Source: Acidobacteriaceae bacterium
GTDB taxonomy: Bacteria > Acidobacteriota > Terriglobia > Terriglobales > Acidobacteriaceae
Length of the DNA stretch: 64,000 nucleotides
Assembly: GCA_036509515.1 (NCBI GenBank)
Contig: DATCFM010000099.1
Coordinates: 7,063 to 71,062 of the forward strand
Reading direction: 5' to 3'
The first letter of the stretch is position 1, and the number at the start of each line of letters is the position of its first letter. A program made the position numbers and the translations under genes. Below the pieces are notes generated by a model. It ran no database searches. It saw only the letters and a program-made list of their open reading frames with translations, and was not told where the DNA came from. Shown here in pieces: positions 33,462 to 51,834 of the stretch.

Positions 33462-33507
33462 GGGGTGCCCCACCCATGACGACAGCTTGACCGTCGTCAT
33501 GGGTGGG
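33462..33507. repeat. REP-like palindrome (GGGTGCCCCA...GGGTGGG family)
   Basis: CCCACCCATGACGAC-AGCTTGAC-CGTCGTCATGGGTGGG hairpin preceded by GGGGTGCC; related copy inside recG at 50345-50385. Confidence 0.8.
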
Positions 33508-33513
33508 ATTCCA

Positions 33514-48556: not shown

Positions 48557-51466
48557 GTGACCCTCGATCTTCGCACCCCGGTCAAGTACGTGAAGCGAAT
48601 CGGCGACCGCATCGCCGCCGGGCTCCACGAACGCGGCATCGAAACCGTCGAAGACCTGCTCTACCACCTTCCCTTCCGCTACGAAGACCGCCTCCATCCC
48701 CGCCCGCTCTCCACCTACCAGCCCGGCGAGATGGCCTCCGTCGTCGGCGAGATCCGCGGCGCCGTCCTCCTCCGCACCCGCTCCGGCGCCATCTTCGAGA
48801 TGACCGTCGGCATCGCTCCCGCTTCTGTTTCTTCCCCCTCCCACAATCTGTCATCTCGACCGGAGCGCAGCGGAGTGGAAAGACCTGCAGTTTCTTCCCC
48901 CTCCCACAATCTGTCATCTCGACCGGAGCGCAGCGGAGTGGAGAGACCTGCAGTTTCTTCCCCCGACGCGACAATCCCATCCTCCCCAGGCAACAACCCG
49001 GGCGCCCCAGCCCGCCCTGAGCGCAGTCGAATGGGTCTCGATTCTGAGACGTGGGTTTCCACAGATGCCACTGCCAGCGCCAAAGGCGCGCAACATACCA
49101 GCCTGGGGCGCAGCCCCAGGAACACGCCATTAACAAACGACCCGAGGGCTGAAGGCCCGGTGCCATCTGGAGCGTCGATGTTCACCGAACCCTCCATGGC
49201 CGGTCTTCTACAACCGCCACCCATCCTCGAAACCATCAAATGCCTCTGGTTCCACGGCGCCTACCTCAAAGACAAGCTCCGCCCCGGCCAACGCATCGCG
49301 CTCTACGGCAAGCTGGAGGGCTCGCGCTCCGGCAACGCCCTCAACGCCCCTCCCGGCAGCACCAAGTTCAAGATGGTGCAGCCGATCTTCGAAATTCTCC
49401 CCGACGCCTCCGCCACAGGTGACGACGCCGAGTTCACCATGCTCGAGATGGGCCGCATCGTCCCTGTCTACCCCTCGCTCGGCGGCACAACTCCCTGGGG
49501 AGCCAAGCTCACCTCGCGCTGGCTCCGCCGCGTCCTATGGACAATCTTTCGTGAACTAAAAGAGAACAACATCCGCGCCGACGAAACGCTTCCGCGCGCA
49601 CTCTGCGAGCGCCTCGGCCTTCCCACGCGCATGGAGGCGCTCGAAGCCGTGCACTTCCCGCCCGCCGGCACATCGATGACGGATCTCATGTCCGCGCGCA
49701 CGCCCGCGCATCGCCGTCTCATCTTTGAAGAGCTCTGGTACCTCGAGCTCGGCCTCGAGCTCAAACGCCGCCGTCTCCGCGAGCGCGAAGGCACAGCCTT
49801 CCTCACCAACGACAAGGTCCGCGAAGCCCTCAAGCAGGTGCTTCCCTTCAAACCCACCGCAGCCCAGAAGCGCGTCCTCGGCGAGATCGTCGCCGACATG
49901 CGCGCCCCGCGCCCCATGCGCCGCCTGCTGCAGGGCGACGTCGGCTCCGGCAAAACCATCGTCGCCTTCCAGGCCGCATTGGTAGCCATCGAAAACGGCT
50001 ATCAGGTCGCCCTCATGGCCCCCACCGAGATCCTCGCCACGCAGCACTTCCTCTCCGCGCGCAAACTCTTCCGCGACGTTCTCTCCCCCAGCAAGCAGCG
50101 TCCCTATCGCCTCACGCTGCTCACCGGCTCGCTCGACGACCGCGCCAAGCGCGAAGCCCGCGCCCGCATCTTCCGCGGAGAGACCGATCTCGCCATCGGC
50201 ACCCACGCCCTCGTCGAAGAGAAGGTCGACTTCCATAACCTCGGCCTGGTCATCGTCGACGAGCAGCACCGCTTCGGCGTCCAGCAGCGCTTCAAACTCA
50301 TGCGCAAGCAATCCACTGGCGAACCCGCGCGGACGAATACGAATCCGGGTGCCCCATCCGTGACAGCTTCATCATCACGGGTGGGATCAGAGAATGTCTC
50401 AGGTCACACAGGTCTGGAACCCGACACCCTCGTCATGACCGCGACGCCCATCCCCCGCACCCTCGCGCTCACCCTCTACGGCGACCTCGAGGCCAGCGTC
50501 CTCGACGAGCTTCCCCCCGGCCGCACCCCCATCGTCACCCGCCGCATGCCCGAAGAACGCTCCAGCGAGGTCTGGGACTTCGTGCGCAAGCAGGTCGCCC
50601 TCGGCCGCCAGGCCTACATCGTCTACCCCATCATCGAAGGCGAGCGCGATGACCAGCCCGAGCTCGACTTCGCCCACGACGAACCCACCGATCCCTCCCA
50701 CCCGCTGTCATCTAGACCCTCAACAGATCTGTCATCTCGACCGGAGCGCAGCGAAGTGGAGAGACCTGCAGTTCGTTCACGGCGCAACAAAACTCAAACG
50801 GCACGCGCGGCGGCCCCACCGTCGACGCGCAACAAACGCTCTCCCACCCGCACCAGACTCCGCTCCGCCTCCGAGATGTTCGACGAGCTCCAACACGGCG
50901 CTCTGCACGGCCTCAAACTCGGCCTGCTCCACGGCCGCATGTCCGCTGACGACAAGGAGGTCACCATGGCCCGCTTCCAGCGCGGCGAGATCCAGGTCCT
51001 CATCGCCACCACCGTCATCGAGGTCGGCGTCGACGTCCCAAACTCCACAGTGATGGTTGTTGAACACGCCGAACGCTTCGGCCTCGCCCAGCTCCACCAG
51101 CTCCGCGGCCGCGTCGGTCGCGGCGCCGCCAAAAGCTACTGCGTCCTATTAACAGGTAGCAAAATCTCGCCCGAAGCCGAGCAGCGCCTCGATGCCATGA
51201 TCCAGACCCAGGACGGCTTCGCCCTGGCCGAGATCGACCTCAACCAACGCGGGCCTGGGGAATTCTTCGGAACCCGCCAGGCCGGTCTGCCCGAGTTCCG
51301 TGTCGCCAGCCTCACCCGCGACCGCGATCTTTTCGAATTGGCCAAGGCCGAAGCCGCACACTTCGTCGAAGCCCCCGACCCCGCCACCACCCCCGCCGAG
51401 CGCGAGGCCATCTGGGCCCGCCTCAAACACCAATGGCAGCGCCGCTACGGCCTCGTCGAAGCCTGA
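48557..51466 (+). CDS. recG: ATP-dependent DNA helicase RecG, enlarged by in-frame repeat insertions
   Basis: LPFRYEDR, RLLQGDVGSGKT, MAPTEILA, DEQHRFGV, MTATPIPRTL, EVGVDVPN, QLHQLRGRVGRG, DGFALAEIDL..RGPGEFFGTRQAG. Confidence 0.96.
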   Translation: MTLDLRTPVKYVKRIGDRIAAGLHERGIETVEDLLYHLPFRYEDRLHPRPLSTYQPGEMASVVGEIRGAVLLRTRSGAIFEMTVGIAPASVSSPSHNLSSRPERSGVERPAVSSPSHNLSSRPERSGVERPAVSSPDATIPSSPGNNPGAPARPERSRMGLDSETWVSTDATASAKGAQHTSLGRSPRNTPLTNDPRAEGPVPSGASMFTEPSMAGLLQPPPILETIKCLWFHGAYLKDKLRPGQRIALYGKLEGSRSGNALNAPPGSTKFKMVQPIFEILPDASATGDDAEFTMLEMGRIVPVYPSLGGTTPWGAKLTSRWLRRVLWTIFRELKENNIRADETLPRALCERLGLPTRMEALEAVHFPPAGTSMTDLMSARTPAHRRLIFEELWYLELGLELKRRRLREREGTAFLTNDKVREALKQVLPFKPTAAQKRVLGEIVADMRAPRPMRRLLQGDVGSGKTIVAFQAALVAIENGYQVALMAPTEILATQHFLSARKLFRDVLSPSKQRPYRLTLLTGSLDDRAKREARARIFRGETDLAIGTHALVEEKVDFHNLGLVIVDEQHRFGVQQRFKLMRKQSTGEPARTNTNPGAPSVTASSSRVGSENVSGHTGLEPDTLVMTATPIPRTLALTLYGDLEASVLDELPPGRTPIVTRRMPEERSSEVWDFVRKQVALGRQAYIVYPIIEGERDDQPELDFAHDEPTDPSHPLSSRPSTDLSSRPERSEVERPAVRSRRNKTQTARAAAPPSTRNKRSPTRTRLRSASEMFDELQHGALHGLKLGLLHGRMSADDKEVTMARFQRGEIQVLIATTVIEVGVDVPNSTVMVVEHAERFGLAQLHQLRGRVGRGAAKSYCVLLTGSKISPEAEQRLDAMIQTQDGFALAEIDLNQRGPGEFFGTRQAGLPEFRVASLTRDRDLFELAKAEAAHFVEAPDPATTPAEREAIWARLKHQWQRRYGLVEA
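48827..48962 (+). repeat. 63-bp tandem repeat (x2) containing a CTGTCATCTCGACCGGAG...GGAGAGACCTGCAGT element, in frame in recG
   Basis: Units start at 48827 and 48890, differ at 1 nt, and encode VSSPSHNLSSRPERSGVERPA twice. Confidence 0.92.
48998..49055 (+). repeat. GGGTGCCCCA-family palindrome with a nested GCCCTGAGCGCAGTCGAA element, in frame in recG
   Basis: CCGGGCGCCCCA-[GCCCGCCCTGAGCGCAGTCGAATGG]-GTCTCGATTCTGAGACGTGGG. Confidence 0.65.
49076..49159 (+). repeat. AGCGCCAAAGGCGCG...CCTGGGGC..GCCCCAGG palindromic element plus AGGGCTGAAGGCCC, in frame in recG
   Basis: 49076-49120 matches the intergenic copy 51470-51514 at 41/45 nt. Confidence 0.88.
50345..50385 (+). repeat. GGGTGCCCCA-family palindrome in frame in recG helicase domain 1
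   Basis: CCGGGTGCCCCATCCGTGACAGCTTCATCATCACGGGTGGG; same ends and ACAGCTT loop as 33462-33507. Confidence 0.8.
50705..50772 (+). repeat. Third CTGTCATCTCGACCGGAG element plus partial copy, in frame in recG helicase domain 2
   Basis: 50729-50772 nearly identical to 48911-48954 (LSSRPERSEVERPAV); partial CTGTCATCTAGACC at 50705. Confidence 0.9.
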
Positions 51467-51469
51467 CCA

Positions 51470-51514
51470 AGCGCCAAAGGCGCGCCACATACCAGCCTGG
51501 GGCAACGCCCCAGG
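51470..51514 (+). repeat. Intergenic copy of the AGCGCCAAAGGCGCG palindromic element
   Basis: Starts 3 nt after the recG stop; two hairpins GCGCC-AAA-GGCGC and CCTGGGGC-AAC-GCCCCAGG. Confidence 0.88.
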
Positions 51515-51516
51515 TT

Positions 51517-51588
51517 GGCACTGTTCATGCCATCAGTCTCCGCAAAGCCACCCGAGAGGAGCAAAGACGCTATGCCAAAGAGTCCTAA
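51517..51588 (+). pseudogene. C-terminal remnant of a BrnT-family toxin
   Basis: Reads GTVHAISLRKATREEQRRYAKES*, matching the BrnT terminal ISxRKAxxxE..Y motif; overlaps the start of the BrnA-like gene. Confidence 0.7.
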
Positions 51589-51834
51589 ACCCGACGCCGA
51601 AAATCCGGAGTGGACTGCGGAACGATTTGCCCGCGCCAAGCGTCTCCACGAGATGCTCTGGAGGTGCAGCGAGCGTTTGCCCGCAAGAAGCGCGGACCGC
51701 AGAAGTCCCCGGTCAAGAAGCTCACCACCATCCGCCTCTCTCAGGACGTCCTCGCGGCTCTGCGCTCCAAAGGCCGCGGCTGGCAGACGCTTGCGGATGA
51801 GACGCTGCGCAGTGCTTTCGTGAAGGAACGCTAA
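51572..51834 (+). pseudogene. BrnA (DUF4415) antitoxin, frameshifted near 51657
   Basis: MPKSPKPDAENPEWTAERFARA... continues in another frame as ...RGPQKSPVKKLTTIRLSQDVLAALRSKGRGWQTLADETLR. Confidence 0.8.

What the first reader, a model, noticed from the sequence alone, without database searches (positions are those of the whole stretch)
48810..50860. recG is a landing pad for several families of palindromic repeats, all inserted in frame
Seen: this RecG is 969 aa and keeps all helicase motifs, against 693 aa for E. coli RecG. Most of the excess is in three blocks: a wedge-domain loop (about 48810-49230), between DEQH and TAT (about 50305-50420), and after YPIIEG (about 50640-50860). These hold three copies of a CTGTCATCTCGACCGGAG element, two GGGTGCCCCA-family hairpins, one AGCGCCAAAGGCGCG element and a GCCCTGAGCGCAGTCGAA motif. 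Two families have intergenic siblings in this window (33462-33507; 51470-51514, 41/45 identical). Known parallel: Rickettsia palindromic elements insert in frame into housekeeping proteins. Inference: repeated independent insertion of unrelated mobile hairpins into one DNA-junction helicase points to a hotspot or a tolerated peptide-creation route. The hairpins might also act on recG mRNA. I do not know of this being described for Acidobacteriota.
Basis: partly seen in the sequence, partly recalled or inferred. Interest (0 to 1): 0.88.

Follow-up and report, generated by a model that had tools for sequence, protein, structure and literature searches.

The report
Mobile hairpins piled inside RecG loops
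In this soil/peat Acidobacteriaceae bacterium, small repeats from three unrelated families sit in frame in three predicted floppy loops of the DNA-repair helicase RecG and in about 40 other genes, and they nearly all point the same way relative to unusual local patches of strand base bias, which likely helps decide which genes collect them.

Summary
Observation confirmed. recG (48557-51466, 969 aa) carries six repeat elements plus a truncated one, all in frame, in three loops predicted to be disordered. The core is 669 aa in 29 of 32 genus orthologues; loop length and repeat content differ even between 95%-identical relatives. recG is not a unique target: 34 of 72 copies of the main family lie in frame in 29 ORFs (polA, dnaX, priA, gyrA, hem genes and others). 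polA is hit in as many relatives (7 of 20 each), but recG stacks more copies (28 vs 9). Each family brackets its own small enzyme gene in relatives: an Ssn-like GIY-YIG nuclease or one of two Y1/HUH transposases. One element is Rfam Acido-Lenti-1. 383 of 386 assignable repeats lie on the locally C-rich strand of tens-of-kb skew patches, and 29 of 34 coding copies use one polar reading frame. Best reading: tolerated selfish insertions, as with Rickettsia RPEs; recG is a sink with several permissive loops. Translation and mobility are untested. The scan earlier noted in-frame repeats, Acido-Lenti-1 as a REP, and skew-aligned repeats on other DNA.

The parts
48557..51466 (+). recG, 969 aa, open frame with helicase motifs I, II, III, VI
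48809..49225 (+). Loop A (aa 85-223), between two beta-strands of the wedge domain; 3-139 aa across the genus; predicted disordered
48848..48892 (+). F1 element copy 1 (TGTC-tagged; family brackets small GIY-YIG genes in relatives), read as LSSRPERSGVERPAV
48911..48955 (+). F1 element copy 2, tandem 63-nt duplication with copy 1
   Evidence: family D1
48998..49056 (+). F2 element (GGGTGCCCCA type; family brackets a second Y1/HUH class in relatives) with the GCCCTGAGCGCAGTCGAA module nested at 49014-49031
49076..49120 (+). F3 double hairpin; matches Rfam Acido-Lenti-1 (RF01687) on the minus strand above the gathering score; family brackets a Y1/HUH transposase gene
49145..49159 (+). F4 hairpin, found with F3 beside the same Y1 genes
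50309..50416 (+). Loop B (aa 585-620), between motifs II and III; 8-141 aa across the genus; predicted disordered
50345..50387 (+). F2 hairpin element in loop B
50642..50857 (+). Loop C (aa 696-767), helicase domain 2; conserved DDQPELDFA head then variable part; 30-167 aa across the genus; predicted disordered
50705..50718 (+). Truncated F1 head
   Evidence: sequence; similar partial heads precede other coding copies
50729..50773 (+). F1 element copy 3
51470..51514 (+). Intergenic F3 / Acido-Lenti-1 copy just after the recG stop
33462..33509 (+). Intergenic F2 sibling

Best explanation
RecG here carries in-frame copies of three unrelated repeat families in three loops predicted to be disordered, most likely as tolerated selfish insertions spread by small single-strand-DNA enzymes rather than as a recG-specific device. 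Shown: each family is multicopy and, in relatives, brackets its own enzyme gene (F1 a roughly 100-aa GIY-YIG nuclease; F2 and F3/F4 two classes of Y1/HUH transposase). Copies lie almost only on the locally C-rich strand. Coding copies of F1 are nearly all sense and in one polar frame. The same few loops are hit again and again in relatives, in recG, polA and priA. Inferred: (1) the enzymes nick the hairpins as ssDNA and new copies arise with fixed strand polarity; (2) most insertions in genes are purged, and survivors keep the frame, encode a Ser/Pro/Arg/Glu-rich peptide and fall in an existing surface loop; (3) recG is the heaviest sink because it has four permissive loops, lies sense-on-C-rich strand in the loaded lineages, and each insert widens the neutral target for nested and tandem copies; (4) the inserts are translated and leave the helicase working.
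For: Core constancy vs loop turnover: 669 aa outside the variable segments in 29 of 32 full-length genus RecGs, total length 784-1037 aa. G001, G012 and G035 are 95-97% identical in the core but differ in loop length (A 80/36/69, B 86/58/141, C 64/167/64) and family content. 27 of 72 distinct RecG genes had pattern hits in loops: 83 hits in 30 kb of loop vs 10 in 150 kb of core. AlphaFold pLDDT is under 50 at model positions 89-210, 584-615 and 697-759; top fold match is RecG 1gm5. Genome census: 64 of 389 motif hits are intragenic, in 44 ORFs; 59 in 40 after a hairpin filter on F2. F1: 34 of 72 intragenic, 33 of 34 sense, 29 of 34 in the LSSRP frame. All three sense frames are mostly open in intergenic copies (25, 30, 26 of 31). 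Core length is a multiple of 3 in 26 of 32 coding vs 12 of 31 intergenic copies (p 8e-4). The sister family F1b reads TGA in the equivalent frame (sequence) and is intragenic in only 7 of 93. Enzyme links: F1-type repeats within 200-300 nt of 27 of 29 small GIY-YIG loci, on both sides in 17, vs about 0.04 expected per 500 nt; F3/F4 beside 28 of 30 Y1 class-A loci, including G000's own; F2 beside 12 of 17 further Y1 loci, all 12 of one class. Polarity: 383 of 386 assignable hits on the C-rich strand, genes split 878/928. In relatives whose polA or priA is G-rich the inserts are antisense. RecG length correlates with C-rich synonymous skew (rho -0.64, 31 genomes, kin not independent).
Against: No expression or proteomic evidence. 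Mobility is inferred from flanking only; no empty-versus-filled allele pair at nucleotide level was found (closest relative is 92.5% identical in the core). In G000 the only small GIY-YIG gene is flanked by a sister repeat type, not F1, and no F2-class Y1 gene was found among 3 PF01797 matches (assembly 76% complete). F1 does not match the published degenerate SRM pattern (0 of 3 copies). The frame bias could partly reflect target-site phase: AATCTG lies in frame 0 in 369 of 425 coding occurrences. Intergenic F1 between co-directional genes is also sense-biased (23 vs 5). Some loop inserts may be inherited from a shared ancestor (F1 in loop C of G000, G032, G025). Gene calls are from my own codon model. 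Positions 48873-49092 are not bridged by a listed contig. The skew correlation was absent for polA and priA length (rho -0.05, 0.18).
Confidence: 0.75

Rival explanations
1. recG is a targeted hotspot: the insertion machinery prefers this locus, for example through ssDNA structure or protein contact.
For: recG is the most loaded ORF of the assembly (8 motif hits; next 4, 3, 3). It has 28 hits vs 9 (polA) and 4 (priA) in 20 shared genomes.
Against: Genomes with at least one hit are 7, 7 and 4. Three unrelated enzyme systems would need the same target. G015 has 110 exact F1 copies but none in its G-rich recG. Hits in recG come in nested and tandem clusters at three sites.
Confidence: 0.07
2. The inserts are adaptive: the peptides or mRNA hairpins tune RecG and other replication/repair proteins, as Di Nocera et al. 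speculated for REP-tagged repair genes.
For: DNA replication/repair families make up 8 of 38 annotated host ORFs vs 0 of 75 length- and strand-matched non-host genes at the same Pfam cut-off (Fisher p 1e-4). One peptide frame dominates.
Against: No insert is conserved: content turns over between 95%-identical relatives, and many orthologues have none. Orientation tracks DNA skew, not transcription. Most hosts are unrelated enzymes (hem, pur, trp, tRNA modification). Low expression or modular structure could explain the enrichment (inference). The controls came from only 20 genomic windows.
Confidence: 0.1
3. The sense and frame bias comes from target-site choice (a short word that falls in one codon phase) rather than from selection on the peptide. 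This is compatible with the rest of the best explanation.
For: The bases upstream of F1 are similar in coding and intergenic copies, and AATCTG and CTG are strongly phase-biased in genes.
Against: It does not explain the near-absence of F1 from the half of genes on the G-rich strand (1 of 34), nor the excess of core lengths divisible by 3.
Confidence: 0.2
4. The inserts are an assembly artefact, or are removed from the RNA or protein.
For: Repeats break assembly graphs; 48873-49092 is not bridged by a listed contig.
Against: Contigs cross the loop B and C junctions and both ends of loop A without differences. Independent assemblies, including single-contig chromosomes (G018, G020, G025), show in-frame inserts at the same loops. 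Frame preservation argues for translation.
Confidence: 0.03

Closest known systems
Rickettsia palindromic elements (RPE; Ogata et al. 2000, 2002, seen only as summarised in PMC10969869 and PMC3184786)
   Same: Multicopy palindromic repeats fused in frame inside conserved housekeeping genes, with a recurring peptide, and variable among relatives.
   Different: Elements here are about 36-70 nt cores, not about 105-150 bp. Three enzyme-linked families stack in one protein. The host is an Acidobacteriaceae genome from peat/soil-type samples, not a Rickettsia. Strand polarity to skew patches is not described in what I read.
Intragenic GTAG/CGTC REPs (Di Nocera et al. 2013, PMC3733652)
   Same: TGTC/CGTC-tagged hairpins; intragenic copies, often in DNA replication and repair genes (uvrA/B, polA, recBCD, dnaE2); grouped inserts of 43-82 aa; acidobacterial Y1 genes flanked by TIRs are mentioned.
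   Different: F1 is longer and less perfectly paired than the CGTC-1 to -4 families. recG does not occur in the main text or the 4 supplements searched; Acidobacteria are named only for Y1 transposase genes. That paper found no enzyme for CGTC repeats; here F1 brackets GIY-YIG genes.
Ssn nucleases and their NTS/SRM repeats (Chenal et al. 2025, PMC11893778)
   Same: A small single-domain GIY-YIG gene bracketed by directional TGTC/CGTC hairpins. The supplement lists ssnA homologues in some Granulicella, Edaphobacter and Terriglobus genomes.
   Different: F1 fails the published SRM search pattern. 47% of F1 copies are intragenic vs 2% of NTS in N. meningitidis. Mobilisation by Ssn is a hypothesis in that paper too.
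REPtrons (RAYT/TnpA-REP with REP/REPIN; PMC3733652, PMC6006769) and Rfam Acido-Lenti-1 (RF01687; PMC2864571)
   Same: F2 and F3/F4 bracket Y1/HUH genes and are dispersed without them. F3 passes the Acido-Lenti-1 gathering score.
   Different: Acido-Lenti-1 is catalogued as an RNA of unknown function; here it behaves as a transposase-linked DNA repeat and lies inside a coding frame. In G000 copies are mostly polar singletons rather than inverted doublets.

Membership tests
RecG helicase | Scores above curated RecG model cut-off | tested here: met
   NF008168 792 > 718 and NF008165 772 > 711; TIGR00643 641 is below its 659.4 cut-off
RecG helicase | Wedge domain plus two helicase domains, motifs intact | tested here: met
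   (model; top hit 1gm5)
RecG helicase | Junction-unwinding activity | not testable with these tools
   needs purified protein
RPE-like protein-coding repeats | Multicopy repeat with both intergenic and in-frame intragenic copies | tested here: met
RPE-like protein-coding repeats | Insert absent or different in orthologues | tested here: met
RPE-like protein-coding repeats | Located where the fold is predicted to tolerate it | tested here: met
   (prediction only; low pLDDT is also expected from shallow alignment in loops)
RPE-like protein-coding repeats | Insert present in the expressed protein | not testable with these tools
   no RNA or proteome data available in session
RPE-like protein-coding repeats | Sequence homology to RPE-1 to -10 | not tested
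   no RPE sequences fetched
Ssn-related motif (SRM) | Brackets a small single-domain GIY-YIG gene | tested here: met
   27 of 29 loci in the genus; the exact F1 type in 8 of them
Ssn-related motif (SRM) | Matches the published degenerate SRM pattern | tested here: not met
   0 of 3 recG copies
Ssn-related motif (SRM) | Cognate GIY-YIG gene in the same genome | tested here: inconclusive
   G000's one small GIY-YIG is flanked by a sister repeat type; assembly 76% complete
Ssn-related motif (SRM) | Protein belongs to cd10448 and cuts the repeat as ssDNA | not testable with these tools
   no CDD library; needs assay
CGTC REP families 1-4 | 5' CGTC/TGTC tag | tested here: met
CGTC REP families 1-4 | 8-9 bp stem with 4-5 nt loop | tested here: not met
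   longer, interrupted stem with a variable inner hairpin
REPtron repeats (F2, F3/F4) | Bracket a Y1/HUH transposase gene | tested here: met
REPtron repeats (F2, F3/F4) | GTAG foot and assignment of the enzyme to a RAYT subclass | not tested
   no subclass profiles run
Rfam Acido-Lenti-1 | Covariance-model score above gathering threshold | tested here: met
   43.7 and 39.9 bits vs 37

The most novel reading that the evidence does not exclude
The polar repeats and the skew patches are one system. Strand-specific nicking at these hairpins (or a replication mode that they mark) creates tens-of-kilobase domains of extreme strand-asymmetric mutation that ignore gene direction and a simple two-replichore layout. 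The same polarity then feeds one family of disordered peptides into replication and repair proteins, RecG above all, so that a gene's position in a domain predicts how its protein grows.
Probability: 0.15. Interest if true: 0.9.

Novelty: new variant of a known kind. Interest (0 to 1): 0.6.

Why it matters
It extends protein-coding palindromic repeats to Acidobacteriaceae at high density (about half the copies of one family lie in genes) and links each family to a candidate enzyme. It offers a natural experiment on how new protein segments are filtered: a sister repeat with a stop in the favoured frame is mostly excluded from genes, and sister genomes refill the same loops with different families. 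It gives a first controlled test, in one genome, of the old remark that REPs favour DNA replication and repair genes. The near-absolute alignment of eleven repeat patterns with patchy, gene-independent GC skew is a clue both to how REP-like elements spread and to an unexplained chromosome property of this genus. In practice these loops inflate protein lengths and can mislead start-codon calls.

Tried and rejected
No RNA holder was listed for the stretch; this says nothing about expression. No contig covered 48969-49063 at 97% likeness; a hole proves nothing. Transcription-coupled orientation was rejected as the primary rule: antisense intergenic copies and antisense inserts in G-rich genes still lie on the C-rich strand. 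A simple two-replichore explanation of the polarity was not supported: skew changes sign repeatedly over 20 sampled 12-kb windows of the complete chromosome G015, and F1 is on the + strand on both sides of dnaA. Which strand is leading could not be fixed from marker genes in G000. Rfam gave no match for F1 or F2 at E <= 1. Rfam gathering hits missed G000's own Y1 locus, although the motif pattern is there. The script missed most Y1 genes through an over-strict motif and was replaced; one search failed for polA and was replaced. Rows dropped: of 38 genomes with a RecG match, G028 (frameshifted in the assembly), G008, G017, G031 and G059 (partial) were left out and G002 was used as partial. Three F2 host ORFs were dropped as chance matches and three host ORFs were not scanned, giving 38 of 44 for the functional test. 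Ogata et al. 2002 was not held. No complex prediction was run, as no binding claim is made.
Full report
Observation. The ORF at 48557-51466 is 969 aa, passes two curated RecG cut-offs and keeps motifs I, II, III and VI. Against the 693-aa solved RecG the alignment breaks at three places. These are loops A (aa 85-223), B (585-620) and C (696-767). They hold three F1 elements (CTGTCATCTCGACC type; two in a 63-nt tandem), two F2 elements (GGGTGCCCCA type, one with the GCCCTGAGCG module nested), one F3 double hairpin followed by an F4 hairpin, and a truncated F1 head. In the 2.67-Mb, 76%-complete assembly motif patterns found 72 F1, 57 F2, 34 F3 and 10 F4 copies, against 0, 8, 0 and 0 in a simulated genome. 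Public contigs cross the junctions of loops B and C and both ends of loop A without differences, but none listed bridges 48873-49092, and the best run may be the source sample. The nearest named records are Acidobacteriaceae, many labelled Granulicella or Bryocella; the runs holding half or more of the stretch are peat metagenomes.

Orthologues. All 36 same-genus genomes searched have recG. In 29 of 32 full-length proteins the part outside the variable segments is exactly 669 aa, while loops A, B, C and a fourth site vary over 3-139, 8-141, 30-167 and 11-96 aa. Of 72 distinct RecG genes from the genus and its neighbours, 27 had repeat-pattern hits in loops: 83 hits in 30 kb of loop against 10 in 150 kb of core, the latter looking like chance. 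The closest relative, G032 (92.5% core identity), has other families in loops A and B. G001, G012 and G035 (95-97% identical) differ in all loops. F1 in loop C of G000, G032 and G025 may be inherited. The AlphaFold model has pLDDT under 50 over the three loops, with loop A between two wedge-domain strands; its top structural match is RecG 1gm5. Hydrophobic residues are 8-16% of the loops vs 33% of the core.

recG is the heaviest case, not the only one. With my own codon-model gene calls, 64 of 389 motif hits lie inside 44 ORFs with coding signal on both sides; 59 in 40 after a strict hairpin filter on F2. Hosts include polA, dnaX, priA, gyrA, polX, a DinG-type helicase, an AddB-like protein, ligD, ribonucleotide reductase, purL, glmS, anthranilate synthase, metG, ffh, obg, RNase R, trmD, rlmN, ispE and hemE/H/G. 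recG has 8 motif hits, the next ORFs 4, 3 and 3. In 20 genomes with all three genes, hits are 28 (recG), 9 (polA) and 4 (priA), but genomes hit are 7, 7 and 4. polA and priA have their own recurrently filled loops. DNA replication/repair families are 8 of 38 annotated hosts vs 0 of 75 non-host genes matched for length and strand class at the same cut-off (p 1e-4). The controls come from 20 windows only, and expression was not controlled.

Filter on coding copies. F1 is intragenic in 34 of 72 copies (29 ORFs); 33 are sense and 29 read LSSRP...ERPA. The other sense frames are as open in intergenic copies. Core length is divisible by 3 in 26 of 32 coding vs 12 of 31 intergenic copies. The sister family F1b has TGA in the equivalent frame and is intragenic in 7 of 93 (p 4e-9). 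This fits selection on a translated polar peptide. A phase-biased target word is a partial alternative (AATCTG is in frame 0 in 369 of 425 coding occurrences). Intergenic F1 between co-directional genes is also sense-biased (23 vs 5), and 5 of the 38 'intergenic' copies lie in the extended frame of a called gene.

Candidate enzymes. F1-type repeats lie next to 27 of 29 small GIY-YIG loci of the genus, on both sides in 17, often inverted; about 0.04 would be expected from control loci. This is the architecture of Ssn nucleases and their SRM repeats (PMC11893778: abstract and sections 7, 8, 10, 12, 17 read; 12 of 14 supplements searched). F1 fails that paper's search pattern, and G000's single small GIY-YIG gene is flanked by a sister repeat. 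F3/F4 lie next to 28 of 30 loci of one Y1/HUH class, including G000's. F3 is Rfam Acido-Lenti-1, above threshold beside 8 of 20 such loci and in 0 of 20 other loci, 17 of them polA. F2 lies next to 12 of 17 further Y1 loci, all 12 of a second class. That these enzymes spread the repeats is inference.

Polarity. 383 of 386 assignable hits (389 examined, 3 ambiguous) lie, as written, on the C-rich strand of the surrounding 10 kb, while genes split 878 to 928. Synonymous-site skew reaches 0.7-0.9, is independent of gene direction, changes smoothly over tens of kb within contigs, and is higher near repeats (mean 0.57 within 3 kb, 0.30 beyond 18 kb). In the complete chromosome G015 the sign flips many times and sampled repeats follow it; in G003 skew is weak and repeats are mostly inverted pairs. 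Orthologues change sign between relatives. Heavily loaded recG genes are C-rich (rho of length with skew -0.64 over 31 related genomes), G-rich ones are short, and inserts in G-rich polA or priA are antisense. Recent inversions on an ordinary replichore skew remain a possible cause; I did not test synteny.

Mechanism. The likely chain is: strand-polar spread of ssDNA hairpin repeats by their own nucleases or transposases (inferred); purge of most coding insertions; survival of frame-keeping, polar-peptide copies in permissive loops (pattern shown, selection inferred); snowballing by nesting and tandem duplication in recG, which has four such loops (nesting shown).

Known work. In-frame palindromes are known from Rickettsia (seen through passages of PMC10969869 and PMC3184786; the primary paper was not held). 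Di Nocera et al. 2013 (PMC3733652: abstract, sections 6, 15, 16, passages, 4 supplements searched) report intragenic REPs, many in replication and repair genes, do not mention recG, and name Acidobacteria only for Y1 genes. Acido-Lenti-1 is listed as a probable RNA (PMC2864571, passages) and as of unknown function in a 2026 preprint (one passage). PMC6006769 (passages) ties Y1 enzymes to lagging-strand ssDNA. Eight searches (listings only unless named above) showed no paper on coding repeats in Acidobacteriota or recG, nor on skew-aligned repeats; subscription journals are mostly not covered, and two unsearched supplements of PMC11893778 could bear on the SRM assignment. The scan's own notes hold like cases on other DNA, and none for this genome.

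Verdict. A real, RPE-like phenomenon in a new phylum, with recG as a tolerant sink rather than a special target. The frame filter, the three enzyme links and the strand polarity make it a variant worth following. Interest 0.6.

Noticed in passing
G000 contigs C34, C118, C15, C99, C105, C64; G015 windows L270-L289; window 1-64000: GC skew is extreme at synonymous sites (up to 0.9), independent of gene strand, and patchy over tens of kb with sign changes; it flips between orthologues of close relatives. All repeat families align with it. Cause unknown.
   Followed up: partly
window 49076-49120 and 51470-51514; G000:C82:15458-16166: Rfam Acido-Lenti-1 behaves as the repeat of a Y1/HUH transposase class.
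   Followed up: yes
G000:C112:5152-5454 (L052) and C30:8497-8748 (L053): Two more Y1 genes, each flanked by its own repeat families (F5/F7 and F5/F6). None of these families was classed as intragenic in G000, but F5 and F6 occur in RecG loops of relatives.
   Followed up: partly
window 50642-50683: Loop C begins with a DDQPELDFA motif conserved across the genus. It resembles a sliding-clamp-binding motif (label recalled, untested).
   Followed up: no
G000 genome-wide; L003 and L012 RecG loops: Several 7-base tandem repeat families occur in G000, and 7-mer arrays lie in frame in RecG loops of G025 and G036.
   Followed up: no
window about 51515-51834: A small gene downstream of recG appears split over two frames; it looks like a BrnA-type antitoxin (label recalled, not scanned).
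   Followed up: no
G000:C82:943-8540 (L073-L076): Five F1 copies lie within 8 kb, four in consecutive ORFs including hemE, hemH and hemG, about 7 kb from a Y1 gene.
   Followed up: partly
G000:C38:17056-19767 (L056): The second most loaded ORF (4 motif hits, about 900 aa) has only a weak match to a mycothiol amidase-type model.
   Followed up: partly
G003: F1 forms inverted doublets about 130 nt apart (REPIN-like) in this genome, which has weak skew, unlike the polar singletons of G000 and G015.
   Followed up: partly
L032 (G028): recG is split over two frames in this assembly; sequencing error or real frameshift not resolved.
   Followed up: no
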